In this document: piece by piece, positions 2-44,417 of the stretch
Layout of the letters: every line of letters begins with the position of its first letter
Position numbering within the stretch: position 1 is the first letter of the stretch
NCBI GenBank assembly: GCA_963664815.2
Contig: CAXXHB010000003.1
Span: forward strand, 1,696,001 to 1,760,000
Length of the DNA stretch: 64,000 bases
From: Spirochaetota bacterium
GTDB taxonomy: Bacteria > Spirochaetota > UBA4802 > UBA5550
Direction: 5' to 3'
Notes under the pieces: generated by a model
The model's input: only the letters and a program-made list of their open reading frames with translations
Databases searched by the model: none
Told to the model about the DNA's origin: nothing
Translations under genes and position numbers: made by a program

Positions 2-253
2 GAGCCGGTAATAGACCTCTTATCACAACAAGGGATTCAGGATTTTAACAGCAAAGCGACTGAAAAAGCAGGTATAGATACTTGCAATCACTTCTTTAAA
101 CGCTACATAGACTATTCCGGAGCAATTCCCAACATGAAGCCTGATGATTTGAGAAAGCTGAAGACTGGAATGAAAATTGAGCTTAACACAATGGCCTCGG
201 CAAAAAATGTTTACGAATTTGCCGGAATAAAAAAGGTGGCACACAATGTCTGA
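2..253 (+). CDS. Partial (5'-truncated) hypothetical protein, coupled to the downstream FliN-FliG fusion
   Basis: Frame open from position 2 (EPVIDLLSQQGIQDF...EFAGIKKVAHNV) to TGA at 251-253, overlapping the ATG at 246 (ATGTCTGA). Not in the ORF track because the start lies outside the window. Confidence 0.65.
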   Translation, partial: EPVIDLLSQQGIQDFNSKATEKAGIDTCNHFFKRYIDYSGAIPNMKPDDLRKLKTGMKIELNTMASAKNVYEFAGIKKVAHNV

Positions 254-2312
254 TGGACCGTTGAGCCAGGAAGAGATTGATGCCCTGCTTCAGGGAGCCG
301 GCTCTGTTCTCAAATCTGAGAAAAAAACGGAAGTGAGCGCTGTATCAGAGAATGAACCTGAAGAAAAAGGGGATTTTGATGAATTTCCGTTAACTGATAA
401 TGATACGTTTGAAGAACCGTCGGGCATGAAAAACTGTTCAAAAACTGAGGCACCGCAGGAAGCTGCATCGAGGTTGATTCATATCAGAAGTGAACAACTT
501 TACACCGGGAAACTTACTGTAAGAGAATCATTCAGCAATAAACTGATATCTTATCTGAACGGGAATGGTAAAAAGGCTTTGAAGAGTAAATACCTGTCAA
601 CATTTTACAATGATATTCTTGATCCTGATGAAAAGAAATTTATATCCGGAGATGATTATGGTGATGAGTATGACGGCAGTGTTATGAAAGGGATATTGAA
701 GAGAATCAGGAACTCAATAACTGGGGTTAATAAATTGGTTCCAGATGTATCCTGCGGATATGAGTTGAATCTTGAAAAATTCAGATTCCCTGTAACTGTA
801 AGGGTTGAAGCAGGTACCGTTGTGTATAATGAAATAATCAGGGGAGAAGACCAGGTTCCTGTTTCAGATATATCGGGAAGAAAGGCGTTACTTGTTATTG
901 GAGATATGGAGATCGGAAGCGGGAAGATATCCGCAAAAGATGGCAAAGTGGCATTTATTGAGCTTACTGATACTGTCATGAACAGCAGATCAGGAGCTTT
1001 GCCGTTGACAGATTTGCTTCACGAATACCGCTTTAATATATCGGTTGAGGTGGGGAGAAAGAGTATCCACCCGCTTGAAGCGGAGGAGATTTATAATGGA
1101 ACAGCACTTGTTTTTGATAAATACGCGGGAGAACATCTTGATGTAATTCTTGAAGATTATGATCTGGTTATTGCAAAGGGGGAGGCATGCATTCTTGGTG
1201 AAGTGACGGCTGTACGAATTACAGAAATGGTAAATATTAACCTGCCCGGAGTTCTTAATGGGGAATATGAGAAGAAGAGAGATATCGGGCCGGAGGCTAT
1301 TGTTCCCGTACGATTCGTTTACGGAAGAAGAAAAATGACAATTAAGGAAGTTATTGGTCTTGGAGAGGGGAGTGTTTTGGAACTGGACAGAATATTCCTG
1401 GTTCCTGCCGAGCTTATGTTCGGGGATGAACCGGCAACACGGGCAGAGCTAATTGTTGTTGATGGAAAGCTTGGTGCAAGGGTTCCGGTAGCAAGATTGA
1501 AAAATCTGTATGGTAATAAGCCTGTGAAATCCGTACTGGAATCCTCCTGTGAAAGAGAAGATGTGTCGGTTGGTGAAACTACCGGGCAGGATTATACTTC
1601 TGGAATGGATGGAGCAGATAAACCCTTCAGCTTTTTCAACGAAAACAATATTGAGCATACATTATCAGTTCTTGAAAACGAACATCCTCAGACAATAGCG
1701 CTTGTTCTGTCATATCTTGAAGCTAAACATTGTGCTATGATTCTCTCGTATCTTCCACCTGAAGTCCGTATTGCTGTTACCCGGAGAATTGCATGTATGA
1801 GGGGAGTTTCTGTAACAGTGATCGAGGATTTGGAAAAAGTGCTTCGAAAAAAGCTTTCAAGGATATCATCAGATAGATATCTTTATTCCGGGGGACTTGA
1901 CCATACCATTGAAATAATTAAAAATACCGATCATGGTATGGAAAAGTCTCTTATTGAGGGTCTTGAAGAGACAGATCCACAAACAGCAGCGGAGATAAAA
2001 AATGGAATGTTTTTATTTGAAGATATTGTATTTCTTGAAGACAGATCCGTACAGAAGGTGCTTAGAGAAGTAGATACTCAGGATCTTGTAAAAGCGCTCA
2101 GGGGAGCCAGTAAGGATGTGCATGAGAAAATATTCAGAAATATGTCAAAACGTGCAGTCAGTCTTATAAAAGAGGATATGGATTTCATGGGATCGATTCT
2201 TCTGATAGATGTTCAGAATGCTCAGGAAAAAATAATAAAAATCATTGGAAAACTGAAGGATTCCGGAGAAATATTAGTTCTTCGTCCGGGGGAAGATTAT
2301 CTGGCAAAGTAA
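246..2312 (+). CDS. Flagellar switch-like fusion protein: FliM/FliY N-terminal peptide + 3 SPOA (FliN-like) domains + FliG middle and C-terminal domains
   Basis: N-terminal LSQEEIDALL; SPOA-like segments at about aa 179-242 (degenerate), 261-329 and 353-413 (VEVGRK...GT/GS.L.FD/LD...GE...AVRITE); FliG motifs EHPQ (aa 479), GG linker, MFLFEDI (aa 588) and NMSKRAVSLIKED. Confidence 0.85.
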   Translation: MSDGPLSQEEIDALLQGAGSVLKSEKKTEVSAVSENEPEEKGDFDEFPLTDNDTFEEPSGMKNCSKTEAPQEAASRLIHIRSEQLYTGKLTVRESFSNKLISYLNGNGKKALKSKYLSTFYNDILDPDEKKFISGDDYGDEYDGSVMKGILKRIRNSITGVNKLVPDVSCGYELNLEKFRFPVTVRVEAGTVVYNEIIRGEDQVPVSDISGRKALLVIGDMEIGSGKISAKDGKVAFIELTDTVMNSRSGALPLTDLLHEYRFNISVEVGRKSIHPLEAEEIYNGTALVFDKYAGEHLDVILEDYDLVIAKGEACILGEVTAVRITEMVNINLPGVLNGEYEKKRDIGPEAIVPVRFVYGRRKMTIKEVIGLGEGSVLELDRIFLVPAELMFGDEPATRAELIVVDGKLGARVPVARLKNLYGNKPVKSVLESSCEREDVSVGETTGQDYTSGMDGADKPFSFFNENNIEHTLSVLENEHPQTIALVLSYLEAKHCAMILSYLPPEVRIAVTRRIACMRGVSVTVIEDLEKVLRKKLSRISSDRYLYSGGLDHTIEIIKNTDHGMEKSLIEGLEETDPQTAAEIKNGMFLFEDIVFLEDRSVQKVLREVDTQDLVKALRGASKDVHEKIFRNMSKRAVSLIKEDMDFMGSILLIDVQNAQEKIIKIIGKLKDSGEILVLRPGEDYLAK

Positions 2313-2331
2313 TTATTAAGGAAATTTACAT

Positions 2332-2976
2332 ATGGAACTGATAGACTTTACAGGGATATACCAGACAGGCGGAAAGTTTTTAAAATTTACCGGTTATAGT
2401 GAGCTGGCTGACAAATTGACCGGTATCAGCGAGAAAACCAGGAAAGAGGGATTGCTGGCTATTGAAGATGACCTGGAATATATGGATAATATAATGATGA
2501 AAAAGCAGTTTCAGCTGGTTGTAGATGGAACCGATCCGGAGATTGTTAAAAATATAGGTTCACTGCGGCTCTGTAATCTGCTTTATACCTTGAAGGAGAT
2601 TCTTGCATGTGCAGAATTCACGCTTTTCATGGATGCTGAAATGGAATTTGAATTATATCTGGCAAGTCGTGATGCAGCTTCCAGTGCGGTTCTTATAAAA
2701 GAGATGAGAGAGCAGATACTTTTTCTCAGAAAAGGGAATGAACAGGGAATTGAACTTCCTGAAAGGTTCAGAGCTGTTATTGATACGGTAAACTCCGGTA
2801 TTGACTGTGAAATAAAAAAGAATATTATAGAAAACCACATATGTTCAATACTTAATATAAACAGAATATATAATGAGGTCATAATAGCTGGTGTATTGGG
2901 AGTTCAGGCAGGTGACAACCCCTCGGTTCTCAGGGAGAAGCTTGATGCGATAACAGGTAATATCATTCAGGCATAA
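2332..2976 (+). CDS. MotA-like protein consisting only of cytoplasmic elements (no transmembrane helices)
   Basis: KTRKEGLLAIED, QLVVDGTDPEIV and C-terminal IIAGVLGVQAGDNPSVLREKL are MotA/PomA cytoplasmic motifs. No 18-20 aa uncharged hydrophobic stretch. RBS AAGGA upstream. Confidence 0.75.
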   Translation: MELIDFTGIYQTGGKFLKFTGYSELADKLTGISEKTRKEGLLAIEDDLEYMDNIMMKKQFQLVVDGTDPEIVKNIGSLRLCNLLYTLKEILACAEFTLFMDAEMEFELYLASRDAASSAVLIKEMREQILFLRKGNEQGIELPERFRAVIDTVNSGIDCEIKKNIIENHICSILNINRIYNEVIIAGVLGVQAGDNPSVLREKLDAITGNIIQA

Positions 2977-2981
2977 ATTAC

Positions 2982-3533
2982 TCAATCGAACATAACGTAA
3001 CTCACGGAAGACTCAATTTTTTTCTCTATCTCTTTTCTCTTTAATTTGAGATTTTCGAATTCACTTCGTGCTTCAGAGGTTTTTATCTTCTGCATAAGGA
3101 CGTCGCCAGTGTGTGTGTAGAAAAAAATTTTTCTTGAATTATATCCTCCGAAGTTGTAATTAACTATTGGTATTTTTTCTGTAATGAGAAAATCAACAAC
3201 CATTTCGACGTTTTTCAGCCCCATGGCCAGTTCATGGCTCATGGAGGGAAGCAGCTGAGCACCGCCGAAAATCTTTGCCTTTAGCCTGTATCTGTTCGTT
3301 CCGAGTTTCATCAACTGGTTTATAAGAAGCTCCATTGCATTGATTGCGTATCTTGCATCTCCCGGAGTTGATTTGCCTGATTTCTCTTCAGGGAGTAGTA
3401 TATGATTCATTCCCCCAGTTTTGCTGTATGGCTCAAAAAGACACACAGCAACACATGGACCGAGAATTGTTGTTATAACGGCAGGCTCTGCCGAGGAATA
3501 GTACTCGCCTATATGTATATTTATATTCTTCAT
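2982..3533 (-). CDS. cheD: Chemoreceptor glutamine deamidase CheD
   Basis: IHIGEYY...TILGPCVAVCL...GGMNHILLP...AKIFGGA...KN motifs; catalytic Cys/His present. Confidence 0.92.
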   Translation of the reverse strand: MKNINIHIGEYYSSAEPAVITTILGPCVAVCLFEPYSKTGGMNHILLPEEKSGKSTPGDARYAINAMELLINQLMKLGTNRYRLKAKIFGGAQLLPSMSHELAMGLKNVEMVVDFLITEKIPIVNYNFGGYNSRKIFFYTHTGDVLMQKIKTSEARSEFENLKLKRKEIEKKIESSVSYVMFD

Positions 3534-3577
3534 TTCAATCTCATAAATAATATAGAAAATTGACTCATATATTAGGA

Positions 3578-3616
3578 TAACACGATTGTGTTAGTTTTTT
3601 TAGCACGACTATGTCA
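3578..3616. promoter_or_regulatory. Tandem pair of 16-bp palindromic operator-like sites (consensus TAACACGATCGTGTTA) between cheD and the NarL-type gene
   Basis: TAACACGATTGTGTTA at 3578-3593 and TAGCACGACTATGTCA at 3601-3616; the same motif pair recurs at 4425-4462. Confidence 0.65.
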
Positions 3617-3679
3617 TTGACTGACAGAAAGCATATGGTAATTTAATATCAATTCTTTTTGTTTTCCTTAAGAGGTATT

Positions 3680-4360
3680 ATGGAAAAAATTGTTATTGTT
3701 GATGACCACCCGGTTATTATAAATGGCCTTCGCGTTATTCTTGAGGAAAGCGGCCGTTATACCGTCACAGGTGAAGCCTTAAACGCAGAAGAGGCTATGA
3801 TGATACTTAATAAGGTTAGTGCTGATCTGATGATAATTGATGTAGAGCTTGGATGCGGATTAAACGGTATTGAACTTGTGAAGAAAATTTGCAAAGATTA
3901 TCCCGAAATAAGGATGCTGGTTATGTCAATGGATGACGGGGCTCTATATGCCGAGAGGGCATTAAAGGCCGGCGCGAAAGGATTTATATCCAAGGTTAAT
4001 GTGGCGGATGATATTTTTACGGCGATTGAAACTGTTAAAAAAGGTCAAATATATCTCAGCAGTGAGGTCTGCAATATAATAGCAGGTAATTATTTCAGAA
4101 ACTATATTAACCCGGTTGTGGATAATGATATGGCCAGCCTTACCGACCGTGAACTTGAGGTTTTTCAGCTTATTGGAAGAGGATATAAAAGGATGGAGAT
4201 AGCAGAAAGGTTGAATATAAGTGTAAGTACATTTGAGGCCCACAGGCGTAAAATAAGGAAAAAAATGAGCATAGAGACATCCTCGGAGCTTATTAAAACA
4301 GCAATTAAACACGAAGCTGAGCGATTTCATATCCAGCCATTATCTGAACCACGGCTGTAG
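3680..4360 (+). CDS. NarL/FixJ-family DNA-binding response regulator
   Basis: IVIVDDHPV receiver domain, phosphoacceptor D in IIDVEL, LuxR HTH LTDRELEVFQLIGRG...IAERL. ATG at 3680 after GAGG is preferred over TTG at 3659. Confidence 0.92.
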   Translation: MEKIVIVDDHPVIINGLRVILEESGRYTVTGEALNAEEAMMILNKVSADLMIIDVELGCGLNGIELVKKICKDYPEIRMLVMSMDDGALYAERALKAGAKGFISKVNVADDIFTAIETVKKGQIYLSSEVCNIIAGNYFRNYINPVVDNDMASLTDRELEVFQLIGRGYKRMEIAERLNISVSTFEAHRRKIRKKMSIETSSELIKTAIKHEAERFHIQPLSEPRL

Positions 4361-4424
4361 ACTGTATCTAAATTTGATAAATATGACAATTTAATTATTC
4401 CCTGATTTCCGGTATTATCCCCCC

Positions 4425-4462
4425 TAACACGAACATGTTATATCATTGTCACGATCGTGTTA
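4425..4462. promoter_or_regulatory. Second tandem pair of the TAACACGATCGTGTTA operator-like palindrome, upstream of the che operon
   Basis: TAACACGAACATGTTA at 4425-4440 and TGTCACGATCGTGTTA at 4447-4462. Confidence 0.65.
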
Positions 4463-4680
4463 TCTTTAAAAACATTTAGGTGTTATTGCCGGAGATTCAT
4501 ATTTCTATATTTTAATATTAAGTATAAGAAATTATCTCAGAGTAAAATTCCCAATAAAGCAGGGCAGGAGATAGTTGAACGTATAGCAAAAACAGCAAAA
4601 GAACTCGTCATAATTTTTTAATGTGTATAAACATTTCATTGAATACGAAATCGATGAAATGCAGGGGAGATGATAAGGTT

Positions 4681-5286
4681 ATGGCATTTACATACTTTTT
4701 CAGGGATATGCAGACCCTTGAGATGATAAGGGATTACGCAATACCAGTGCTGAGGACCAAGAGATATATAAATGTATGGGATGCAGGATGTGCCATGGGG
4801 CCTGAACCTTATTCACTTGCTATTATACTCAGGGAAAACATGGGGAACATGATTTTCAGAAATGTAAGAATATATGCCACTGATATAGACGGGAGTAATC
4901 TTTTTCAGGAGATTATAGAATCCGGGGAATACCCGAGGGAACAACTGGACAGAATTCCGTCAGATATATTCAACAGGTATTTTTCTAAAGTGGATGATGG
5001 TGAAAAATACAGGATATCGGAAGACATAATCAGATGCCTGCATTTTATAAGGCACGATCTTCTCTCACTTCATCCGGTAAAGAATGATTTCAGTATGGTT
5101 TTATGCAAGAATGTTCTGCTTCACTTTAAACATGAAGAGAGAGTTAAGGTTATAAAGATGTTTCATGAAAATCTTCTAGAAGGGGGATTCTTTGTTACTG
5201 AACAGACCCAGAAGATGCCTGAGGAACTGGATGGTTTTTTTGAACAAGTAGTATCTAATGCACAGGTGTACAGAAAGGTCGGATAA
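4681..5286 (+). CDS. cheR: Short CheR-type methyltransferase (catalytic domain only)
   Basis: Begins MAFTYFFRD; VWDAGCAMGPEPYSLAI, IYATDID, HDLL and LCKNVLLHF motifs; lacks the N-terminal all-alpha CheR domain. Confidence 0.85.
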   Translation: MAFTYFFRDMQTLEMIRDYAIPVLRTKRYINVWDAGCAMGPEPYSLAIILRENMGNMIFRNVRIYATDIDGSNLFQEIIESGEYPREQLDRIPSDIFNRYFSKVDDGEKYRISEDIIRCLHFIRHDLLSLHPVKNDFSMVLCKNVLLHFKHEERVKVIKMFHENLLEGGFFVTEQTQKMPEELDGFFEQVVSNAQVYRKVG

Positions 5287-5894
5287 TGAGAGCGGATAAT
5301 GTGAAAATATATAATCTCACTGAAAACAGTAAAGTTTATACATCAAATGTTTATCTTATAACAGGAACTTGGAACAGGATTGATGATGTTAATGCACTTA
5401 TTGATGTCGGACGTGATCTTTCTATACTTGAAATGATTCTTGAAATCCCCACCGGCGTTGGTAAAAAACAGGTTGAGAAAGTAGTAATTACTCACAACCA
5501 TTACGATCACACATCAATGCTTCCAAATGTGAAAAAAGTATTTAATTCCAGGGTATGTGCTTTTTCAAATTCAATAGCTGGAGTAGATCGCATACTGAGA
5601 GACGGAGACATGATAAAACTTGGAGACAGGTTATTTGAGGTTATACACACACCTGGTCACAGTAGTGATTCAATATGTCTCTATAACATGGATGATGGTG
5701 CTCTTTTTTCTGGAGATACATCTCTTGTTATACGTAACACTGAATCATACTATGATGATGAATTTATCAGAGCTGTGGAAAAACTGTGCAGACGTGATGT
5801 GCAAATAATATATCCGGGGCATGGAGAAACTATTCGTGAAAAGTGTAATGATAAGATAAGGGAATCATTGAAAAACCTGAGGAAAAATAATTAA
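5286..5894 (+). CDS. MBL-fold metallo-hydrolase
   Basis: THNHYDH, HTPGHSSDS, LFSGD and YPGHG motifs; TAATG overlap with the upstream cheR. Confidence 0.9.
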   Translation: MRADNVKIYNLTENSKVYTSNVYLITGTWNRIDDVNALIDVGRDLSILEMILEIPTGVGKKQVEKVVITHNHYDHTSMLPNVKKVFNSRVCAFSNSIAGVDRILRDGDMIKLGDRLFEVIHTPGHSSDSICLYNMDDGALFSGDTSLVIRNTESYYDDEFIRAVEKLCRRDVQIIYPGHGETIREKCNDKIRESLKNLRKNN

Positions 5895-5999
5895 ACGAAA
5901 TTTATGTTTATCTTATCAGTGGAATTGAACCGGGTATAATGTTATAATCCGGATTTTAATAATTTATTTTATACAATATAGTGCAATGAGGAGGATGTA

Positions 6000-8291
6000 A
6001 TGTTCAGGAATATGAAACTTGGTATTAAAATTCTTACAGGATTTACAGTTCTCACTTTTCTTATAATAGGTGTTGGGGTAATTGGAATTGTTAACATCAG
6101 GCAAATTAATAGCGCAGATACAAAACTATATGAAAAAATGACTCTGCCGCTGGGTGATCTTGGACAGGCGGGAATGGACTTCCACCGTATAAGGGTTAAC
6201 CTCAGGGACGCTATATCGTCAACCAGTATATCTGACAGAGATAATTTTATAAAGAGAGTGGAAGAGCTTGGAAAAGATATGATTAATAATCTTGATGATT
6301 ATGAGAAAACAATACTTACAGATGAAGGAAGGCGGCAGTTTACTGAAATGAAAAAATCCATTGATGATTACACTATTCAGCAGAATGAAATGATACGGTT
6401 AATAAAGGATAATAAAAATGCAGAAGCCTCAGTTATTCTTTATGGTGAGGGCGGGAAATGTGCAAGAAAAATAATTGATCTTGTTGACAAGATGTATGAA
6501 CTGAAGACTTCCATGGCCAAAAAAACATCAGACGAAAATACAGTGCTGGCAAATTCATCTGTGACATTAATGATGATTTTAATTATATTTGCCGCTGTTT
6601 TTTCAGCAATACTAACTTTTGTACTTACCGGAAACATAAAAAAAATTATTAAAAATCTTCTGGATGAAGCCGGGCGTCTTGTTGATGCTGCGGTAAACGG
6701 TAAACTCGATATAAGGGCTGATCCGCAGAAGATAAATTTTGAATTCAGAGATATAGTGGTTGGAGTAAACAATACTCTTGATGCGGTAATAGGACCATTG
6801 AATGTAGCAGCCGAATATGTGGAAAGAATTTCTAGAGGAGATATTCCGCCTAAGATTTCTGATACTTATCATGGAGACTTTAATGAGATAAAGAATAACC
6901 TCAATATGTGTATCGATGCAGTAAATCTGCTTGTGAATGATGCCGGCATGCTCTCAAAAGCTGCAGTTCAAGGGAAACTGGATACCCGTGCAGATGCGAG
7001 CAGACACCAGGGGGACTTCGCAGCGATAGTGAAGGGTGTAAATGATACACTTGATGCGGTAATAGGCCCGCTGAATGTTGCAGCAGAGTATGTTGAGAGG
7101 ATCTCTAAAGGTGATATCCCGCCGAAAATTACTGACAGCTACAATGGAGATTTTAATGAAATTAAGAATAATATAAATATTCTTACCGATGCCATGAACA
7201 AAATTACTGATGTTTCCCAGGAGATTGCAGGAGGAAACCTTATGATTCAGGTGGAGGAAAGGTCGGCACAGGATAAACTGATGATTGCTCTTAAAAAAAT
7301 GGTTAGTGATCTGACGTCAATAGCAGTCGATGTTCAGACAGCGGCCAACCAGGTTGCAACAGGGAGTGGTGAAATGAGCTCATCTGCAGAGGAGATGGCG
7401 CAGAGTGCCAATGAACAGTCCGCCAGTGTTGAGCAGGTGTCCAGCTCAATGGAGGAAATGAACAGTTCGGTTATTCAGAATGCCGATAACGCAAAACAGA
7501 CAGCTGCGATTTCAGACAAGGCGGCGAAAGATGCAAGGGATGGAGGAACCGCCGTTGCTGAAACTGTAAAGGCAATGAAGAGTATAGCGGAAAAGATTTC
7601 CGTAATTGAAGATATAGCAGCACAGACCAATATGCTTGCGCTTAATGCTGCAATTGAGGCAGCCAGGGCGGGCGAACATGGGAAGGGTTTTGCCGTGGTT
7701 GCGGGAGAAGTAAGGACATTGGCAGAGAGGAGCGGCAACGCGGCCAAAGAGATAAATAATCTTTCAATGCAGAGTGTTGAGGTTGCAGAACGTGCGGGAA
7801 AACTCATCGAGGATATAGTACCTCAGATACAAAAGACAGCAGAACTGGTGCAGGAGATAAATGTGTCAAGCTCGGAACAGGCTAACGGAATTGCTCAGGT
7901 AACTCAGGCTGTTGAACAGCTTGATAAAGGGATACAGCAGAGTGCAACTGCAACTGAAGAGATGGCATCAACTACAGAGGAGCTTCTTGGACAGGCGGAA
8001 CAGTTGCAGCGGGCAGCATCATTCTTTAAAGTAAAAGATAATCAGTTTGATGCTGGAGGTGGTAATGGTAACGGAAGACATCCCGGCAGGGAGCATTACA
8101 TTCCCGATAAACGTCAAGGGAAAGCAGGTATTTCAAAGATTTTAAACAGGCAGAATAAACAGATCGAACCTGTCAACAAAGGTTCTGAATTGGAGGCAGT
8201 TAAAAAAAGCTATGGCAACAATGATGTAATAACTGCAGCAGGTGGTGTTGATATAAATCTTGCAAGTGACAGTGAATTTGAAAGATATTAA
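6000..8291 (+). CDS. Methyl-accepting chemotaxis protein with periplasmic helical-bundle sensor and poly-HAMP array
   Basis: Two TM segments; repeated HAMP units; signalling tip [34 protein letters not shown]; C-terminal pentapeptide EFERY; RBS GAGGAGG. Confidence 0.95.
6770..7175 (+). repeat. Intragenic tandem duplication of HAMP units in the MCP
   Basis: [42 protein letters not shown] and [42 protein letters not shown], about 276 nt apart. Confidence 0.8.
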
Positions 8292-8300
8292 AATTCTGTG

Positions 8301-9203
8301 ATGGAGTTGAACATGCTGACAGGAACCGGAGTAAAAACAGATATATCCGTGATGAACAGTGAAACAGTAATGTCAGAGAAGGAGTTTGCGCTTTTCAGCA
8401 GCATGATATATTCAGGAACGGGGATTAAAATGCCCCCTGTAAAAAAACTGATGCTTACTTCAAGACTGATTAAAAGGATGAAGCTGCTTGAAATAAAATC
8501 TTTTAAGCAATATTATGAGTATGTGTGCAGTCCTGAAGGAAAGGTAAATGAATATTTCAGAATGATAGATGCTGTAACAACAAACAAAACCGATTTTTTC
8601 AGAGAGAACGCGCATTTTGAAATTCTTGTAAACATGGTACTGCCGGAGTTGTCCGCCAAGGAAAAATTTGTTAAGGGAAATCCGGTAAATATATGGAGTG
8701 CGGGATGTTCTACGGGAGAGGAGCCTTATACAATTGCTATGGTAACATCGGACTTTTTCAGTAGAGAAAGAATGAAAGGTAAAGAACCTGTTTCGATCCT
8801 TGCAACAGATATTTCTACAAAGGTACTTAATTCTGCAGTTAATGCTGTATATTCAGAAGATTCAATCAAGCCTGTACCGCATACTTTGAGAAAAAAATAT
8901 CTGCTCCGGGGGAAAGGAGAAAAACAGGGGATGTTCCGGATTGCACCGGAGATAAGAAAAATGGTAAATTTCAAAAAACTTAATCTTATGGATGAAAGGT
9001 TTAATCTTGATGTGGAGATAGATATAGTGTTCTGCAGAAACGTGATTATATATTTTGACAGAGATACCCAGAGGGAACTTTTCAACAGGTTTTATGATGT
9101 TATTTCACCCGGTGGTTATCTTTTTATCGGGAGTTCAGAAACACTTCAGGGACTTAATGACAGGTTTGTCCCGGCGGGACCGACTGTCTACAGGAAGCTG
9201 TGA
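8301..9203 (+). CDS. cheR: Chemotaxis methyltransferase CheR (full length)
   Basis: TTNKTDFFRE, IWSAGCSTGEEPYTIAM, ATDIS, FCRNVIIYF and GYLFIGSSE motifs. Confidence 0.95.
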   Translation: MELNMLTGTGVKTDISVMNSETVMSEKEFALFSSMIYSGTGIKMPPVKKLMLTSRLIKRMKLLEIKSFKQYYEYVCSPEGKVNEYFRMIDAVTTNKTDFFRENAHFEILVNMVLPELSAKEKFVKGNPVNIWSAGCSTGEEPYTIAMVTSDFFSRERMKGKEPVSILATDISTKVLNSAVNAVYSEDSIKPVPHTLRKKYLLRGKGEKQGMFRIAPEIRKMVNFKKLNLMDERFNLDVEIDIVFCRNVIIYFDRDTQRELFNRFYDVISPGGYLFIGSSETLQGLNDRFVPAGPTVYRKL

Positions 9204-9242
9204 ATATAAATGGAATCTGTATGTAAATGACCGGGAGAGATT

Positions 9243-10319
9243 ATGGAGAGGAAGATAAAGGTGCTTGTTGTTGATGATTCGGCTGTTGTAAGAAAGGCAA
9301 TGACCGAAATACTTGAATCAGATCCTTCAATTGAAGTAATTGATACTGCTTCAGATCCATATATTGCCGTGGAGAAAATAAGAAAAGTGATCCCTGATGT
9401 TATAACACTTGATGTTGAGATGCCGAGAATGGATGGAGTAACATTTCTTCACCGGATTATGAGTCAGCATCCCATACCGGTGGTGATGTGCTCAAGTCTG
9501 ACTGAAGAGGGTGCCGAAACAACGCTCAGAGCACTTGATTATGGTGCGGTTGATATTATAACAAAACCTAAAATGGGAGTGCAGAAGTTTCTGGAGGAAT
9601 CACAGATAAGGATATGCGATTCTGTAAAAGCGGCGTCACAGGCAAAACTTAAAATACTTACTGCGGGGAAAAAGCATCATCGGACGACGGAAAAACTCAC
9701 AGCTGATGTAATTCTAGCACCGCCCACAGGCAAGTCAATGCTGAGAACAACGGAGAAGATTATTGTAGTAGGGGCATCAACTGGCGGTACAGAAGCATTG
9801 CGTATATTTCTTGAAAGTATGCCGCAGGATGCGCCCGGAATAGTTATAGTGCAGCATATGCCGGAGAATTTCACCAAGGCTTTCGCCAAACGCTTAGACG
9901 GTATATGCAGTATTGGAGTGAAGGAGGCAGAAGACGGAGATACAATAATCCGGGGTAGGGCGTTGATTGCTCCTGGTAATAAACATATGCTGATTAAAAG
10001 AAGCGGGGCGCGCTACTATGTGGAGATCAAAGATGGTCCGCTGGTGTCGCGCCACAGGCCGTCTGTTGATGTACTGTTCAGGTCGGCGGCTGAGTATGCT
10101 GGTGTAAATACGGTCGGTGTTATAATGACAGGAATGGGCGATGACGGCGCAAGGGGGATGCTAGAGATGAAACATGCCGGAGCATTTAACATAGCACAGG
10201 ATGAGAAAAGCTGTGTTGTATTCGGCATGCCTAATGAGGCCATTAAACTTGGTGCTGTTGATTCTGTGCTGCCGTTACTGTCTATAGCGGGGAGTGTACT
10301 TAAAGAGTGCTTGAAATAA
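9243..10319 (+). CDS. cheB: Chemotaxis methylesterase CheB (receiver + esterase)
   Basis: [11 protein letters not shown] receiver; [20 protein letters not shown] and MTGMGDDGA. Confidence 0.97.
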
Positions 10320-10337
10320 AAAAAATGGAGTGAAATT

Positions 10338-10880
10338 ATGGGTGAAACGATAAACTGTATAAGCCCGGATAATAATATCAATTATTCATATGGAACAAAC
10401 TCCGAGACAAAACAAGAAGGAACAGATAGTGTTAAGCTTTATTTTACATTTAAAATAAGGAATGATCTTTTCGGAATACCGGTAAATACAATAAGGGAGG
10501 TTTTGAAATATACAAAAGTATTCAGAACTCCGAGAGTACCTGGTTATATCAAGGGTGTTATAAATCTGCGTGGAGAGGTTGTACCCGTGATAAATCTTCC
10601 CTGCAGGTTTTATGATATGGAAAGCGGGATAACGGAGAATACATCAATAATAATAATTGAGATTACAGAAAATGATGAAAAAATACCAGTGGGGGTTATG
10701 ATCGATTCAGTAAGAGAGGTCACTGAACTTAGCGATGAAAGCATTGAATCTACTCCGGAGGTCGGTAACAGGATAAAGCCGGATTATATCGAAGGGATTG
10801 GAAAGGTTAATGGAGAGTTTGCTATTCTGCTTAAAATTGAAAAGGTTTTGAAGATAGATGAGCTTTCAGATTTTAACTGA
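10338..10880 (+). CDS. cheW: CheW coupling protein
   Basis: IREV...PRVPGYIKGVINLRGEVVPVINL...GVMIDSVREV. Confidence 0.95.
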   Translation: MGETINCISPDNNINYSYGTNSETKQEGTDSVKLYFTFKIRNDLFGIPVNTIREVLKYTKVFRTPRVPGYIKGVINLRGEVVPVINLPCRFYDMESGITENTSIIIIEITENDEKIPVGVMIDSVREVTELSDESIESTPEVGNRIKPDYIEGIGKVNGEFAILLKIEKVLKIDELSDFN

Positions 10881-11055
10881 CAGGAAGTTATAATATTTTG
10901 AAGTTGTCACATAATGTTTGAGTGGAGAGATATATTTATTTTTCAATAAACAGTTTGTGAAGTGAATTTTTATTTATTAGTGGAAGATAAAATATATAAG
11001 TTAAAACAATTATTGTGAGTGTAGGCATAAAGAATTATTAATAGGGAGGATTCTT

Positions 11056-11424
11056 ATGGCAAAGAAGGTTATGGTGATTGATGATTCAAATGCTATCAGA
11101 CAGTCACTTGTTTATACGTTAAAAAGCGCCGGTTATGATGCAATCGAAGCTTCTAACGGTGCTGTAGCGCTTGATCTTATGAAACAGTGTTCAATAGGCC
11201 TTTTTATTTCAGATGTGAATATGCCTGAGATGGACGGGATTACACTGTTAAGAAAAATCAAGGAGGATTCTTCTTATAAACATACGCCGGTTATCATGCT
11301 CACAACAGAGTCATCATCTGATATGATTGAGTCGGGGAAAAAAGCGGGTGCAAAAGCGTGGATTATAAAACCTTTCCAGCCGGAACAGCTTCTCGATGCT
11401 GTTAAAAAACTTTTTGTAAACTGA
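11056..11424 (+). CDS. cheY: CheY-like single-domain response regulator
   Basis: VMVIDDS...SDVNMPEMDG...MLTTES...WIIKPF; lies upstream of STAS-cheA. Confidence 0.92.
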   Translation: MAKKVMVIDDSNAIRQSLVYTLKSAGYDAIEASNGAVALDLMKQCSIGLFISDVNMPEMDGITLLRKIKEDSSYKHTPVIMLTTESSSDMIESGKKAGAKAWIIKPFQPEQLLDAVKKLFVN

Positions 11425-11450
11425 TTCATTTCAGAGATGGAGAAGCGGTT

Positions 11451-11744
11451 ATGAAACTGAGTATAGAAAAGAAGAAAAATGAAAACAATATAGTTTCAAT
11501 GATTATGAAAGGGGAACTGACAGTCTATACAGTTGTGAAGCTTAAGGATATTATCATTAAGGAACTTAACTCTTTTTCAGGGATGGTGTTGAATCTTGCC
11601 GGTATTGATGAGGCTGATTCTGCAGGATTCCAGTTTCTCATTTTTATAAAGCGTGAGGCAGAAAAATCAGGCAAGAGTCTGGTTATAGACAATGCAAGCG
11701 GAAGGATAAAATCAATTTTCTCTCTTTATAATGAGAATCTTTAA
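11451..11744 (+). CDS. STAS-domain protein
   Basis: GELTVYTV...LNLAGIDEADSAGFQFL motif; typical position between cheY and cheA. Confidence 0.85.
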   Translation: MKLSIEKKKNENNIVSMIMKGELTVYTVVKLKDIIIKELNSFSGMVLNLAGIDEADSAGFQFLIFIKREAEKSGKSLVIDNASGRIKSIFSLYNENL

Positions 11745-11758
11745 TCGGGGGTCTCGGG

Positions 11759-13930
11759 ATGTCTATCAGCAGCAGTGACAAAAATTTTAAGAAAGAATAT
11801 TTTACCGAGAGCAGGGAGCTGCTTGATGCAATGGAAATGTCACTTCTGGCTCTTGAGAAAAATAATAAAGATGAGGATTCAATAAATTCAATTTTCAGGA
11901 GCGTTCATACTATCAAGGGGAACTCCGGAATGTTCGGATATGAAAAGATCGGTGAGTTCACGCATCTCCTTGAAAATATACTTGTATGTGTCAGAAGTGG
12001 AAAACTTGACATGAACGGTGATCTGACTGTGATTTTTCTTGAATGCCATGATTTTATAATGAACATGATAGATTTTTTTGAGGATAATAATAATCAAAAG
12101 CTTGATGAAATGAATGAAAAGATTTTCAACGAAATTGCAGGAAGACTGAATTCTTATATTGAAATGCATGATTGTATTCCGGTTGCAGAGAGAGAAGAAT
12201 ATGTTCAGGAGATAACTTCCTGCGTTGATGATGACACGAAAGTCTGTAATGATTGCTGGCATATATCGCTCAGGTTTGGTGAGAGAGTTTTCCAGGACGG
12301 GCTTGATCCGTATTCGTTCATAAGATACCTTGCTGAAAAAGGTGATATAGAAAATATGAGAACTGTCTGTGACCGTATACCAGACGCAGATCATATGAAT
12401 CCGGAGATATGTTATCTTGGTTTTGAAATTGATTTTAAAAGTTCCATAACTAAAAGCGAAATAGAGAATGTTTTCGAATTCGTCAGAGAAGACTGCGAGA
12501 TAAGAATCCTTCCGCCGTTTACAAGCATCTCGGAGTATGTGAAGCTGATAGAAGCCCTGCCGGAAACAAATATGCGGATCGGTGAAATGCTGAAAGAGAT
12601 CGGGTCACTTACCTCGTCTGAACTTGTTCTGGCACTTCAGCTGCAGAGTCTTAACAGCAGTGATTCATTTGATGAAACTGATAAACAGTTTGTAGGGAAA
12701 ATACTTGTAAATGAGAAAATGATTCAGAAGCCGGTACTCGAAGCAGCACTTGAAAAACAGCAGACGGTAAGAAGGAGGGAGGAGAGTGACCGCAAAACAA
12801 TCCGTGTTGAAGCCGGAAAGCTTGATAAACTGATTAACCTGATTGGTGAACTTGTGATAACCGGATCAAACGTAAAGCAGATATCTGAATCGGATGAAAA
12901 AGCCGGTCTCGTAAAAGCTGTCAATGATATGTCGAAGCTTATCGAAGAAATACGCGGAAGTTCAATGGGGATCAGGATGGTACAGATAGGTGAAACTTTC
13001 AGCAGGTTTGAGCGTGTTGTAAGGGATTTGAGCAGGGAGAGGGGCAAAAGAATAAACTTTGTTATTATGGGCGGAGATACTGAACTTGATAAAACTCTGA
13101 TAGATAAATTGTCAGATCCTCTTATACACCTTGTAAGGAACTCTGTTGATCATGGAATAGGGACTCCGGAGGAGAGAACTGCAAACGGAAAATCTGCTGT
13201 CGGTACACTTACACTGAACGCATATCATGAAACCGGGAGTATCGTAATAGAAGTGAAAGATGACGGACACGGGCTGGATAAAGAGAAGATACTTGGAAAG
13301 GCTATTGAACTGGGACTTGCCAAACCTGACCAGGTATATCAGGATTTTGAAATACACCAGTTCATATTTCAGCCCGGATTCTCAACGGCGGCTGAGGTTA
13401 CGAATATTTCCGGCCGCGGCGTTGGTATGGATGTTGTAAAAAGAAATATTGAGTCTCTGCGTGGTAATGTGATGATAGAAAGTGAGACCGGTATGGGTAC
13501 AACAATACGAATACATCTCCCGCTTACACTGGCAATCATAGATGGTTTTATGGTAAGGATTGCCGATTCTTATTATGTTCTGCCGCTGGATATGGTAACT
13601 GAATGTACAGAGGTACATAAAGACGAACTGGAATCAAGAGAGGGGGGTAATTACATAAACCTGCGTGGAGATGTTCTACCTTTTATGAAAATGCGTGAAT
13701 TTTTCATGGAGACAGGTGAAGAACCTGTAAAACATAAGGTTGTAGTTGTAGAACATGCGAGAAGGAGAGTGGGACTCATTGTGGATGAACTTGTCGGTGA
13801 ATTCCAGACGGTTATAAAACCGATGGGAAAAATATTCAGTAGTCTGCAGTGGGCAAGCGGATCAACGATACTTGGTACCGGAGAGGTAGCTTATATTCTT
13901 GATATACCGAAACTTATACAGACGGAATAA
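11759..13930 (+). CDS. cheA: Chemotaxis histidine kinase CheA
   Basis: Hpt IFRSVHTIKGNS; dimerisation domain KLDKLINLIGELVI; HLVRNSVDHG; GFSTA...SGRGVGMDVV; C-terminal CheW-like domain. Confidence 0.97.
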   Translation: MSISSSDKNFKKEYFTESRELLDAMEMSLLALEKNNKDEDSINSIFRSVHTIKGNSGMFGYEKIGEFTHLLENILVCVRSGKLDMNGDLTVIFLECHDFIMNMIDFFEDNNNQKLDEMNEKIFNEIAGRLNSYIEMHDCIPVAEREEYVQEITSCVDDDTKVCNDCWHISLRFGERVFQDGLDPYSFIRYLAEKGDIENMRTVCDRIPDADHMNPEICYLGFEIDFKSSITKSEIENVFEFVREDCEIRILPPFTSISEYVKLIEALPETNMRIGEMLKEIGSLTSSELVLALQLQSLNSSDSFDETDKQFVGKILVNEKMIQKPVLEAALEKQQTVRRREESDRKTIRVEAGKLDKLINLIGELVITGSNVKQISESDEKAGLVKAVNDMSKLIEEIRGSSMGIRMVQIGETFSRFERVVRDLSRERGKRINFVIMGGDTELDKTLIDKLSDPLIHLVRNSVDHGIGTPEERTANGKSAVGTLTLNAYHETGSIVIEVKDDGHGLDKEKILGKAIELGLAKPDQVYQDFEIHQFIFQPGFSTAAEVTNISGRGVGMDVVKRNIESLRGNVMIESETGMGTTIRIHLPLTLAIIDGFMVRIADSYYVLPLDMVTECTEVHKDELESREGGNYINLRGDVLPFMKMREFFMETGEEPVKHKVVVVEHARRRVGLIVDELVGEFQTVIKPMGKIFSSLQWASGSTILGTGEVAYILDIPKLIQTE

Positions 13931-29502: not shown

Positions 29503-30606
29503 ATGAAGAGAATAGCGCTGGTATTATCATTGTTACTTATATTTACTGTAGCTGCGTTTCCTAAAGCTTCAAAAAAAGCTGTAAAAAATCCAGCCAATAG
29601 TCCCTGTGTTAAAGGGAAATGTACTAATGGACAGGGAACAATGAAATATAGTGATGGCACTGTTTATACGGGTGATTTTAAAGATCAGAAGTATGAGGGG
29701 ACAGGAGTACTCGTCAAAGCGGATGGTACAAAATATGAAGGGGAGTTTAAAAACGGAGTTTATGACGGGAAAGGAACTCTTGCCAGGTCTGATGGGACGA
29801 AGTATGCAGGCGAATTTAAAGATGGTAAATTTAACGGGAAAGGTACCCTGACAATTCGGGACGGATCTCAGTTTATCGGTGAATTTATCAATGATAAATA
29901 TGAGGGAAAGGATATTATTGCTGCAGAAAATGGATCGCTGTATGTTGGTGAAACAAAAGATGGCAAATACGAAGGTAAAGGTTCGCTTGTACAGGCTGAC
30001 GGGAACAAGTATACGGGTGATTTCAAAGAAGGTGTATTCAGTGGTGAGGGTACACTCATAAAGAAAGATGGTACACAATATGCGGGAACATTCGTTAACG
30101 GTAAAGCTGAAGGAAAAGGAGTCGTGACAACTTCTGACGGTAAAAAGCTTGAAGGTCTTTTTAAGGATGGACAGATAGAAGGGAAAGGCATTCTTTCTAC
30201 AGCATCAGGTGTTAAGTTTGAAGGGGATTTTAAAGGCGGCAAGGTTACCGGTTCCGGAGTTATGTTATGGCCAAACGGAGCAAAATATGAAGGAGGCTAT
30301 GCCGATGATTATCGTGACGGCAAAGGTACATATTCATTTTCAAACGGTGATTTCTATTCAGGCGGTTATATGCTGAACATAAAAAACGGTACCGGCGAAT
30401 ATAAATGGAAAGACGGTGATGCATACAGCGGAGGCTGGAAAGATGGTCTCATGGATGGCAATGGTGTATATATATGGTCAGATGGAGTTCAGTATTCCGG
30501 GGAGTGGAAAGCCGGAAAAATTAATGGCAGAGGGAAATTAACCTGGCCAGACAAGAAACGGCTGGAAGGTACATTTGAAAATAACAAACTGATCAAAGCA
30601 AATTAG
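29503..30606 (+). CDS. Exported MORN-repeat protein
   Basis: Signal peptide; C..G.C.NG.G cap; about 14 repeats of the DG..Y.G.FKDG...G.G type. Confidence 0.92.
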   Translation: MKRIALVLSLLLIFTVAAFPKASKKAVKNPANSPCVKGKCTNGQGTMKYSDGTVYTGDFKDQKYEGTGVLVKADGTKYEGEFKNGVYDGKGTLARSDGTKYAGEFKDGKFNGKGTLTIRDGSQFIGEFINDKYEGKDIIAAENGSLYVGETKDGKYEGKGSLVQADGNKYTGDFKEGVFSGEGTLIKKDGTQYAGTFVNGKAEGKGVVTTSDGKKLEGLFKDGQIEGKGILSTASGVKFEGDFKGGKVTGSGVMLWPNGAKYEGGYADDYRDGKGTYSFSNGDFYSGGYMLNIKNGTGEYKWKDGDAYSGGWKDGLMDGNGVYIWSDGVQYSGEWKAGKINGRGKLTWPDKKRLEGTFENNKLIKAN

Positions 30607-38889: not shown

Positions 38890-38968
38890 AATAGAGCCTT
38901 TTTCACTTTAAAAAAGTTAAGGAATAAATGCTGATAAAAAAAATAATTTTTCAGGGGTGAATCTAAAA

Positions 38969-43928: not shown

Positions 43929-44417
43929 AAAATAGGATTCTTCCAAGTAGTAAAGTAGTAAAACCGTGCAAAATATAAGTCACTATTCTCGAAGTCAATT
44001 CTATTCACAATAAAAAAACATATTTGATAATTAATTTTCCAGTATAATAAGTTAATAAAAATAGATGTAATACATTAAAATGTGAAGTTTTAATAATTTA
44101 ATATTAAAACCTGCAAGGTAAATTTCATGTATGGACTTCTTTACGAACCGGCCGGTATAAAAAAAGAAATAATTTCAGGAGTGATAAGACATGGAAATGC
44201 AGTAAAATCTGCTGAAAATGTTTTTTTAAACAAAGCTTTTCAATTTTCAATTGACTTTACCCGGGAAAATTCATATATAAAATAGAAACTCAAAAAAGAG
44301 TCAGTTGCTGATGTAAGTGCTCTTGTTGGTTCAATGCGTAATAAGCAGATTATAGTGATTATGGCAGTACAGAATGTACTGATGTAATAATATAGAAAAA
44401 AATGTAAGGAGTAATGC

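What the first reader, a model, noticed from the sequence alone, without database searches (positions are those of the whole stretch)
2..2976. Candidate membrane-free rotor/stator module: single-chain C-ring protein plus soluble MotA, next to a chemosensory cluster
Seen: two adjacent co-oriented genes, 19 bp apart and preceded by a coupled unknown ORF, encode the two surfaces that meet in a flagellar motor. Both lack their membrane anchors: the FliG part has no N-terminal FliF-binding domain, and the MotA part has no TM helices. No motB, fliF or other flagellar gene is in the window. Known: torque arises between MotA Arg90/Glu98 and FliG Arg281/Asp288/Asp289 (E. coli numbering), and CheY-P docks on the FliM LSQxEIDxLL peptide. 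Seen: equivalents are retained (MotA-like R37/E45; FliG-like R636/E643/D644; LSQEEIDALL). Inference: this may be a cytoplasmic CheY-P-gated FliG/MotA complex acting as a non-flagellar output of the neighbouring che system, or as a brake, clutch or decoy for the real motor. I know of no characterised system with this layout, but I cannot search for one.
Basis: partly seen in the sequence, partly recalled or inferred. Interest (0 to 1): 0.88.

Follow-up and report, generated by a model that had tools for sequence, protein, structure and literature searches.

The report
Anchor-less flagellar switch with soluble MotA
A spirochete that already has normal flagellar motors carries an extra three-gene set encoding a motor switch that cannot attach to the membrane ring and a stator protein with no membrane part, which suggests the rotor-stator contact has been reused as a soluble binding or signalling module.

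Summary
The upstream "unknown ORF" is a FliM paralog, so the unit has three genes:
- FliM' (306 aa).
- A fusion of CheY-docking peptide, two FliN domains and FliG middle and C domains (688 aa). It has no FliG_N.
- A 214-aa MotA with no TM helices. It keeps only the two cytoplasmic pieces of MotA.

The charged pairs map exactly onto E. coli MotA R90/E98 and FliG R281/D288/D289.

Canonical fliF, fliG (two), fliM, fliN/Y and two motAB pairs lie elsewhere in the genome, so this set is an extra one.

The FliG-fusion and soluble-MotA gene pair recurs in two other genomes of the order and in one metagenome contig. The che neighbourhood does not recur.

An exhaustive profile search shows that the soluble MotA domain is a wider family. 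Of 148 top hits, 86 lack TM segments, and 31 of those 86 also carry a FliG_C domain in the same chain.

I found no paper describing this.

The function is inferred: a cytoplasmic, CheY-P-responsive switch complex whose FliG face is held by soluble MotA. It would act as a binding switch, not a motor. Binding itself was not demonstrated.

The parts
2..253 (+). 3' end of FliM' (306 aa). The whole gene is G000:C3:1695333-1696253, which is L010:14333-15253. It has an N-terminal LSQNEIDGLL peptide and a FliM middle domain. Pfam finds no FliN-type C domain.
   Evidence: PF02154 E 3e-61; TIGR01397 positions 1-239 of 320.
246..2312 (+). 688-aa fusion: CheY-docking peptide, two FliN (SpoA) domains, FliG_M and FliG_C. 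It has no FliG_N.
   Evidence: Contigs from a second study bridge the domain junctions with 0 differences.
261..290 (+). LSQEEIDALL peptide (residues 6-15). It has the form of the FliM/FliY CheY-P docking motif.
   Evidence: Sequence. The role of the motif is recalled knowledge.
1017..1232 (+). First FliMN_C (FliN-like) domain; the weaker of the two.
   Evidence: E 4e-6, 29.1 bits, over the cut-off.
1299..1484 (+). Second FliMN_C (FliN-like) domain.
   Evidence: E 6e-12.
1662..1871 (+). FliG middle domain. It carries the EHPQT motif (the FliM-binding EHPQR motif of FliG).
   Evidence: (PF14841 E 1.7e-23) and the alignment. The role of the motif is recalled.
1956..2273 (+). FliG C-terminal domain. 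The MFLFED hinge motif that precedes it lies just upstream of these coordinates.
   Evidence: (125.9 bits).
2151..2177 (+). Torque-helix charges R636, E643 and D644, equivalent to E. coli FliG R281, D288 and D289.
2332..2976 (+). MotA' (214 aa): a soluble MotA with no TM helices. TM1 and TM2 are deleted. The TM3-TM4 stretch is replaced by a hydrophilic helical region.
2395..2559 (+). Stretch homologous to the MotA cytoplasmic loop (torque-generating interface; residues 22-76). It holds R37 and E45, equivalent to E. coli R90 and E98.
2581..2841 (+). Family-specific region that takes the place of TM3-TM4 (about residues 84-170). It has its own invariant residues: C93, F96, Y109, S112-R113-D114, R145, S155, D158 and N168-H169.
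2866..2964 (+). Stretch homologous to the cytoplasmic C-terminal tail of MotA (residues 179-211).
2982..13930 (.). Neighbouring chemosensory cluster; context only, and a functional link is not shown. Genes in order: CheD (-, 2982-3533), RR-LuxR, CheR, MBL-fold protein, MCP, CheR, CheB, CheW, CheY (11056-11424), STAS, CheA.

Best explanation
SHOWN. A probable three-gene operon (the genes overlap or lie 19 nt apart) encodes a supernumerary flagellar switch set with both of its anchors removed.
- FliM' has a CheY-docking peptide and a FliM middle domain.
- A single chain joins a second CheY-docking peptide, two FliN domains and the middle and C domains of FliG.
- MotA' consists only of the cytoplasmic torque-interface parts of MotA.

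INFERRED.
- The three proteins assemble in the cytoplasm through the interfaces they have kept: FliM' middle domain to the EHPQ motif of FliG'_M, FliN domains to each other, and the FliG'_C torque helix to the R37/E45 face of MotA'.
- The complex cannot make torque. There is no FliG_N to sit on FliF, and MotA' has no TM helices, no MotB partner and hence no ion path.
- It therefore works as a binding switch. CheY-P docks on the two N-terminal peptides and changes the FliG'_C conformation, as in a real switch. That alters how MotA' is held, and so passes on or buffers a chemosensory signal.

UNKNOWN. What lies downstream of MotA' is not known. In some orthologs MotA' carries a C-terminal piece of a FapA-type beta-solenoid.
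For: DOMAINS, AND WHAT IS MISSING.
- Domain content.
- No TM segment.
- MotA' has a confident MotA-like fold.

INTERFACE RESIDUES ARE KEPT ON BOTH SIDES.
- R37/E45 in MotA' and R636/E643/D644 in FliG'.
- EHPQT, the SGG hinge and MFLFED in FliG'.

THE SET IS AN EXTRA ONE.
- One FliF, next to a 338-aa FliG, and a second 338-aa FliG (ORF length).
- A 350-aa FliM and a 361-aa FliN/Y.
- Two MotA+MotB pairs.

CONSERVATION.
- G020, in another family of the order, has FliM' (315 aa), a FliN-FliG_MC fusion (585 aa) and MotA' (240 aa) with overlapping stops and starts.
- G072 has a FliG_C-ending gene followed by MotA'.
- Metagenome L031 has a FliG_MC-ending gene, a 19-nt gap, then MotA'.
- The four MotA' orthologs are 37-46% identical to the window protein and share invariant residues inside the family-specific region.

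ROSETTA-STONE SUPPORT FOR A FliG_C-MotA CONTACT OFF THE MEMBRANE.
- 86 of the 148 listed profile hits I checked have no TM-like window. Of those 86, 31 carry Pfam FliG_C in the same chain.
- One example is G097's 1237-aa protein, with three MotA-cytoplasmic repeats (read by eye from the translation; the genome search matched two) and two FliG_C domains.

ASSEMBLY.
- The region is confirmed by contigs of a second study with 0 differences.
Against: - No binding has been shown. Both computational attempts gave no answer (see Tried and rejected).
- There are no expression data.
- The module is rare. Full-length MotA' was found in 3 of 122 genomes of the order and in none of the 7 other genomes of the genus. 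It was found in 2 of 401 sampled genomes of the phylum.
- FliG' evolves far faster than the canonical FliG2: end branches are 0.15-0.88 against 0.004-0.04. This fits a new role, but it also fits loosened constraint.
- One of the five classical charged FliG_C positions (E. coli R297) is L in the window protein.
- G020's fusion lacks the N-terminal CheY peptide.
- Two related fusions keep a FliG_N domain and could sit on a real MS ring: G021, and P0127. G021 has no MotA'.
- The che neighbourhood is not conserved.
Confidence: 0.45

Rival explanations
1. A regulator that acts in trans on the real motors, as a brake, clutch or decoy. Soluble MotA' caps the torque helix of the real FliG2, or FliG'_C caps the real stators, so motor output falls. 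FliM' and the fusion hold these inhibitors and release them on CheY-P binding.
For: - FliG'_MC is 55% identical to the genome's own FliG2, the copy next to fliF, and derives from the FliG2 lineage.
- The loop of MotA' is close to that of the genome's own MotAs, so cross-binding is plausible.
- All genomes with the module also have canonical motors.
- 4 of 86 TM-less relatives carry a FapA (flagellar assembly protein A) piece.
- Soluble proteins that stop motors by binding FliG or MotA are known: EpsE, YcgR and MotI. The YcgR abstracts appeared in the listing; the rest is recalled.
Against: - If trans action were the point, there would be no need to encode a matching FliG', FliM' and FliN in the same operon.
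- In 31 of 86 soluble relatives the FliG_C and MotA domains are fused in one chain. That points to the two domains binding each other rather than foreign partners.
- There are no localisation or phenotype data.
Confidence: 0.25
2. An alternative or accessory subunit of the real C-ring. The FliN domains of the fusion co-assemble with canonical FliM/FliN at the base of the periplasmic-flagellar C-ring. This adds CheY-P sites and an extra FliG_MC.
For: - Relatives with the same FliN-FliG fusion keep FliG_N (G021 frame of 1106 aa; P0127 of 979 aa) and could bind FliF.
- C-ring composition is known to diversify. The title and abstract of PMC6946799, seen in the listings, report this for Campylobacter.
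Against: - The window and G020 fusions lack FliG_N, so they cannot take the FliG position on FliF.
- The genome has a single fliF and a complete canonical switch set.
- This reading gives a TM-less MotA no role.
Confidence: 0.15
3. Decaying duplicates of motor genes with no present function.
For: - Distribution is rare and patchy.
- The FliG' branches are long.
- No RNA data are available.
Against: - Reading frames are intact in at least four independent lineages at 37-57% identity, with conserved order and spacing.
- The remodelled part of MotA' has invariant family-specific residues.
- The fold is confidently predicted.
- 27 of the 150 listed rows in the 1.84-billion-protein library match the profile end to end. 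This count includes the window's own protein and two fragments.
Confidence: 0.05

Closest known systems
Canonical flagellar switch complex (FliG/FliM/FliN) with the MotA5B2 stator
   Same: - The domain families are the same: FliM, FliMN_C, FliG_M, FliG_C and the MotA cytoplasmic interface.
- The rotor-stator charge pairs are kept. The EHPQ, Gly-Gly and MFxF motifs and the CheY-docking peptide are kept as well.
   Different: - There is no FliG_N, so no FliF anchor.
- FliN is fused to FliG.
- FliM' has no Pfam-detectable FliN-type C domain.
- MotA' has no TM helices, no MotA_ExbB channel match and no adjacent MotB.
- No torque generation is possible (inference).
FliY of Bacillus and Thermotoga (CheY peptide + CheC-like phosphatase + FliN)
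   Same: - It has an N-terminal CheY-docking peptide followed by a C-terminal FliN domain.
- NCBIfam FliY models hit the FliN part.
- FliY proteins are the next-best full-length database hits.
   Different: - No CheC domain was detected in the window protein.
- A FliG_MC is appended.
Soluble motor brakes and clutches (EpsE, YcgR, MotI/DgrA)
   Same: These are soluble proteins that bind FliG or MotA at the rotor-stator interface, which is a possible mode of action here.
   Different: - Those proteins are a glycosyltransferase and PilZ-domain proteins, unrelated to MotA or FliG.
- No PilZ or glycosyltransferase domain was found here.
- The comparison rests on recalled knowledge plus the abstracts listed.
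Spirochete FliG1/FliG2 paralogs
   Same: - It is an extra FliG copy in a spirochete. The genome has three FlaA genes.
- Each of the five related genomes searched has a strong FliG_C match in a 339-359-aa frame (FliG2 type). The three with a recovered FliG1-type sequence form a separate clade.
   Different: - The module's FliG' is a third copy. It derives from the FliG2 lineage, not from FliG1.
- It lacks FliG_N and is fused to FliN.
Non-flagellar MotA/ExbB/TolQ homologs and Zorya ZorA
   Same: They are relatives of MotA used outside flagellar rotation (passages of PMC12505986 seen).
   Different: - All of those are membrane ion-channel proteins.
- That survey does not use the word 'soluble' (0 occurrences).
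- Here only the flagellar-type torque interface survives, without any membrane part.

Membership tests
FliG | N-terminal domain that binds FliF | tested here: not met
   TIGR00207 matches only positions 110-334 of 338. The Pfam FliG_N hit overlaps FliG_M at E 8e-6.
FliG | Middle and C-terminal domains with the EHPQR, Gly-Gly and MFxF motifs | tested here: met
   PF14841 E 1.7e-23 and PF01706 E 7e-36. The motifs are visible in the alignment.
FliG | Charged torque-helix residues (E. coli K264, R281, D288, D289, R297) | tested here: met
   R281, D288 and D289 correspond to R636, E643 and D644, and K264 to R. R297 is L here, so 4 of 5 are kept. The list of five residues is recalled.
FliN / FliY | C-terminal SpoA-type FliMN_C domain | tested here: met
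   Two stretches, E 6e-12 and 4e-6, both over the cut-off.
FliN / FliY | CheC-like phosphatase domain (FliY only) | tested here: not met
   No PF04509 hit at E up to 0.1.
FliM (the upstream gene) | FliM middle domain and an N-terminal CheY-docking peptide | tested here: met
   PF02154 E 3e-61. TIGR01397 scores 233.8 bits against a cut-off of 219.6. The peptide LSQNEIDGLL is present.
FliM (the upstream gene) | C-terminal FliN-like domain | tested here: not met
   There is no FliMN_C hit. TIGR01397 is matched only to position 239 of 320.
MotA (stator A subunit) | Four TM helices and the MotA_ExbB channel domain | tested here: not met
   No Pfam hit. The maximum KD19 is 1.26 against 2.2-2.9 in canonical MotAs.
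MotA (stator A subunit) | Cytoplasmic torque-generating interface with equivalents of R90 and E98 | tested here: met
   fold.
MotA (stator A subunit) | Adjacent MotB partner | tested here: not met
   The only MotB_plug matches in the genome lie at C3:2460810 and C3:3524851, each next to a canonical MotA.
PilZ-type or EpsE-type motor brakes | PilZ domain or glycosyltransferase domain | tested here: not met
   No such Pfam family appears in any of the three proteins.

The most novel reading that the evidence does not exclude
The rotor-stator contact of the flagellar motor has been taken out of the membrane and reused as a portable soluble protein-protein module. In this spirochete it is wired to a complete CheY-P-binding switch, so a chemosensory pathway can drive a cytoplasmic FliG/MotA binding switch with no rotor, no stator channel and no ion flow. 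The same domain pair recurs in many uncharacterised TM-less proteins. Some of these carry up to five MotA-cytoplasmic repeats (recalling the MotA pentamer) plus one or two FliG_C domains in a single chain.
Probability: 0.35. Interest if true: 0.9.

Novelty: new variant of a known kind. Interest (0 to 1): 0.8.

Why it matters
MotA and FliG are studied as parts of a membrane machine. A naturally soluble MotA torque-interface domain, encoded next to a FliG that cannot sit on the MS ring, would be useful in three ways.

1. It would give structural biologists a membrane-free, possibly stable version of the rotor-stator contact.
2. It would show that the CheY-P/FliM/FliG switch can be used as a general signalling device outside rotation.
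3. It would open up an undescribed family of soluble MotA-domain proteins. 86 of the 148 top profile hits I checked lack TM segments, and 31 of those 86 are fused to FliG_C.

It also bears on how spirochetes, which here have five CheA kinases, use their surplus chemosensory pathways.

Tried and rejected
COMPUTATIONS THAT GAVE NO ANSWER.
- Complex prediction of FliG'_MC (alignment A4) with MotA' (alignment A2) scored 0.24 and 0.27 against a mark of 0.32. The controls were not run. The tool's verdict is "no answer", so this counts neither way.
- AlphaFold2 of P0245, a natural one-chain MotA-cyt + FliG_C protein, with 6 aligned sequences. Most of both domains are confident (10-residue block pLDDT 71-94). 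The linker at 125-155 is below 50 and pTM is 0.48. There is no confident packing between the domains, and I could not inspect contacts.

SEARCHES THAT FOUND NOTHING.
- The search for related loci in genome contigs with MotA' and with P0161 found no relative.
- The search for homologous proteins with lengths 'longer' found none.
- No RNA holder was listed.

SCANS THAT WERE UNINFORMATIVE.
- The promoter and terminator scan of the operon region found 24 promoter-like sites against 15.6 +/- 4.3 in shuffles. It found 2 terminator-like sites against 2.8, neither of them after MotA'.
- I looked for synteny in the same genus through CheD. Each of the 4 genomes has 6 CheD matches. The best ortholog in G119 lies between large PAS sensor kinases, so this is uninformative.
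- The ESM Atlas returned as best hits three unnamed 'hypothetical protein' clusters at score 0.90. These are leads only.
- The G070 hit proved to be a canonical MotA cut by a contig end, with MotB following it.

READINGS CONSIDERED AND REJECTED.
- Assembly chimera. In run X1 one 61-kb contig covers 1-3600 with 0 differences, though this may be the source assembly. In a second study, X3 contigs cover 1-2002 and 1997-3600 with 0 differences, and an X4 contig covers 988-1825.
- Pseudogenes. See the last rival explanation.
- An idea of mine that loss of FliG_N goes together with the presence of MotA'. G021 fits it: FliG_N is present and no MotA' was found. However, P0127 (with FliG_N) and P0161 (MotA' plus an extension) are both recorded on an NCBI contig of 106,976 bp, so the idea is doubtful.

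NOT DONE.
- dN/dS was not computed, because at 37-46% protein identity synonymous sites are saturated.
I therefore could not see the 106,976-bp contig or the 28.5-kb contig of P0002.
- Supplementary files of papers were not consulted.

WHAT I SAW OF THE PAPERS.
- For PMC12505986 I saw only the passages returned by 'find'.
- For all other papers I saw only the search listings and abstract openings.
- The phrase pair 'FliG-like' + 'MotA-like' returned 0 papers.

Full report
WHAT IS THERE.
The window is G000:C3:1696001-1760000 of a 5.2-Mb genome. The genome encodes three FlaA sheath proteins, which is a spirochete trait. One search confirms two co-oriented ORFs, 246..2312 (688 aa) and 2332..2976 (214 aa), 19 nt apart. 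A third ORF runs off the window's 5' end and overlaps the 688-aa start by 8 nt.

I fetched the upstream DNA. That third ORF is a 306-aa FliM paralog. PF02154 scores E 3e-61, and TIGR01397 scores 233.8 bits against a cut-off of 219.6, matching model positions 1-239 of 320. Its N-terminus has the form of the CheY-docking peptide. Pfam finds no FliN-type C domain in it. The unit therefore has three genes, not two.

THE FUSION PROTEIN.
Pfam finds two FliMN_C stretches, a FliG_M and a FliG_C. TIGR00207 fliG scores 250.9 bits but covers only model positions 110-334 of 338, so the FliF-binding N domain is absent.

Aligned with E. coli K-12 FliG (E 4e-39), R636, E643 and D644 fall on R281, D288 and D289. 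K264 is R here, and R297 is L. The EHPQ, Gly-Gly and MFxF motifs are present. The FliG part is 55% identical to the genome's own FliG, the copy next to fliF.

In a tree, the module's FliG' sequences group with the FliG2 lineage rather than with FliG1. Their end branches are 0.15-0.88, against 0.004-0.04 for canonical FliG2 (13 rows; three FliG1-type loci were dropped because my ORF filter found no sequence in them).

THE MotA-LIKE PROTEIN.
- It has no Pfam hit. NCBIfam stator models hit residues 22-76 only.
- The alignment with canonical MotAs shows four things. Vestiges of the TM1 start and of TM2 remain. The cytoplasmic loop and the C-terminal tail are intact. The TM1 and TM2 bodies are deleted. 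The TM3-TM4 stretch is replaced by a hydrophilic region.
- That replaced region has its own invariant residues among four orthologs.
- No hydrophobic window reaches the TM threshold.
- A four-sequence profile hits solved MotA chains, including 8UCS (MotAB bound to FliG), in exactly the two cytoplasmic stretches.
- The AlphaFold2 model is confident (pLDDT 92.7, pTM 0.87). Every listed Foldseek PDB match down to rank 19 is a stator A subunit. The global TM-scores are only 0.43-0.53 with large rmsd, as expected if the membrane hairpin has been rebuilt.
- R37 and E45 align without gaps on E. coli R90 and E98. The role of these pairs is stated in PMC12505986 (passage seen).

THE MODULE IS AN EXTRA SET.
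The genome has one FliF next to a 338-aa FliG, and a second 338-aa FliG (ORF lengths). It also has a 350-aa FliM with its FliN-type domain, a 361-aa FliN/Y, and two MotA+MotB pairs.

IT IS NOT AN ARTEFACT.
Contigs of four runs from two studies carry the region with no differences. They bridge the FliM'/fusion junction, the FliN/FliG_M junction and the fusion/MotA' junction. No RNA run was available.

CONSERVATION.
- Among 5.8 billion proteins the word-indexed search found only one close relative of MotA' and a fragment of it.
- Whole-genome search of the order's 122 species genomes found full-length soluble homologs in three: G000, G072 and G020. None of the 7 other genomes of the genus has one.
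- A sample of 401 genomes of the phylum gave two.
- G020, in another family, has the same three genes with overlapping stops and starts: FliM' of 315 aa, FliN-FliG_MC of 585 aa, and MotA' of 240 aa.
- G072 has a FliG_C-ending gene followed by MotA' with a C-terminal FapA-type piece.
- A metagenome contig has a FliG_MC-ending gene, the same 19-nt gap, then MotA'.
- The FliG-fusion and MotA' pair is therefore conserved. The che neighbourhood is not. G020's module lies between an RND efflux gene and a hydrolase gene.
- In the window, CheD lies convergent between the module and the che genes.

RELATED FUSIONS.
Other one-chain C-ring proteins exist. Two carry FliN-FliG with FliG_N retained: G021 (frame of 1106 aa) and P0127 (979 aa). 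One carries FliM-FliG_MC (P0128, 636 aa). One carries FliM-FliN and is cut by a contig end (G030).

A WIDER FAMILY.
The exhaustive profile search of 1.84 billion representatives gave 2321 hits at E up to 1e-3, of which 28 were at E up to 1e-30.
- Of the 150 rows listed, 27 match the profile end to end. This count includes the window's own protein and two fragments.
- Of the 148 listed proteins I checked, 86 have no TM-like window. 12 of those 86 still match Pfam MotA_ExbB and may be fragments of ordinary MotA.
- 31 of the 86 carry Pfam FliG_C in the same chain, and 4 carry FapA.
- A phmmer map shows chains with one, two, three or about five short MotA-cytoplasmic repeats, in which TM3-TM4 is deleted outright, plus one or two FliG_C domains.
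- G097, in the same family as the window's genome, has a 1237-aa protein with two FliG_C domains. I read three MotA-cytoplasmic repeats in its translation; the genome search matched two of them.
- Repeated fusion of the two domains in soluble proteins is the strongest indirect evidence that they bind each other off the membrane.

HOW IT MOST LIKELY WORKS.
- Shown: the domain content, the missing anchors, the retained interface residues, the conservation and the fusion pattern.
- Inferred: the three proteins form a cytoplasmic switch-like complex, CheY-P docks on the two N-terminal peptides, and this changes how FliG'_C holds MotA'.
- Torque is excluded by the anatomy. There is no ion path, no MotB and no FliF anchor.
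- I put this self-contained binding-switch reading at 0.45, a trans-acting brake or decoy on the real motors at 0.25, an accessory C-ring subunit at 0.15, and decay at 0.05. The remainder is for something I have not thought of.

LITERATURE.
Six full-text searches returned nothing on a soluble MotA, a FliN-FliG fusion or a FliG_C-MotA domain pair. The 2025 MotAB survey (PMC12505986) does not contain the word 'soluble'. I could not search InterPro or CDD, subscription journals or supplements, so a database-level annotation cannot be excluded.

VERDICT.
This is a new variant of a known kind, the flagellar switch and stator families in an anchor-less soluble layout. There is a fair chance that the function is of a new kind. 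Interest 0.8.

Noticed in passing
L024:4964-8677 (-), which is G097:C1, protein P0121: A 1237-aa TM-less protein with two FliG_C domains. It also has three MotA-cytoplasmic repeats, in which the loop is joined directly to the C-tail: I read three in the translation, and the genome search matched two. The next gene encodes a 906-aa protein whose start looks like a WD40-type repeat (read by eye, not scanned).
   Followed up: partly
Proteins P0177, P0179, P0184, P0195, P0180: Metagenomic TM-less proteins of 650-1700 aa with about five tandem MotA-cytoplasmic repeats, most with one or two FliG_C domains at the C-terminus. Five repeats recall the MotA pentamer. Pfam also found TPR, LRR or WG-repeat domains in a few of the 86 TM-less hits; I did not map which proteins carry them.
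   Followed up: partly
L022:1781-2881 (-), which is G072; also P0161, P0162, P0165: Some MotA' orthologs carry a C-terminal extension of about 150 aa. Pfam finds a FapA hit in 4 of the 86 TM-less proteins. In G072's protein it matches only the first 58 positions of the 272-position FapA (flagellar assembly protein A) beta-solenoid model.
   Followed up: partly
Genome C3:3162753-3164879 (outside the window): A CheA in a 1124-aa open frame also gives a weak FliM-family hit (E 1.6e-4, below the cut-off) in the same frame.
   Followed up: no
Genome C3:2339607-2339900 and C3:2350672-2350857 (outside the window): A weak FliG_C match (29.4 bits) with a TGA stop inside it, and a weak FliMN_C match (22.7 bits, below the cut-off) in a 484-aa frame. 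These may be further diverged switch-protein relatives.
   Followed up: no
window 11451-11744: A small STAS-domain gene sits between cheY and cheA in the neighbouring cluster. The cluster also has two CheR genes and an MBL-fold gene.
   Followed up: no
window 41145-43946 (-) and 38957-39895 (+): A 932-aa ORF and a 312-aa ORF with no Pfam family at E up to 1e-5.
   Followed up: no
G072:C42 (1143-aa frame), G072:C9 (670-aa frame), G020:C46 (584-aa frame): Further large proteins with FliG_C domains in related genomes, beyond the FliG1 and FliG2 copies.
   Followed up: no
window 29503-30606: A 367-aa protein made of MORN repeats (E 1.4e-59), lying among acetyl-CoA transferase and acyl-CoA dehydrogenase genes.
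   Followed up: no
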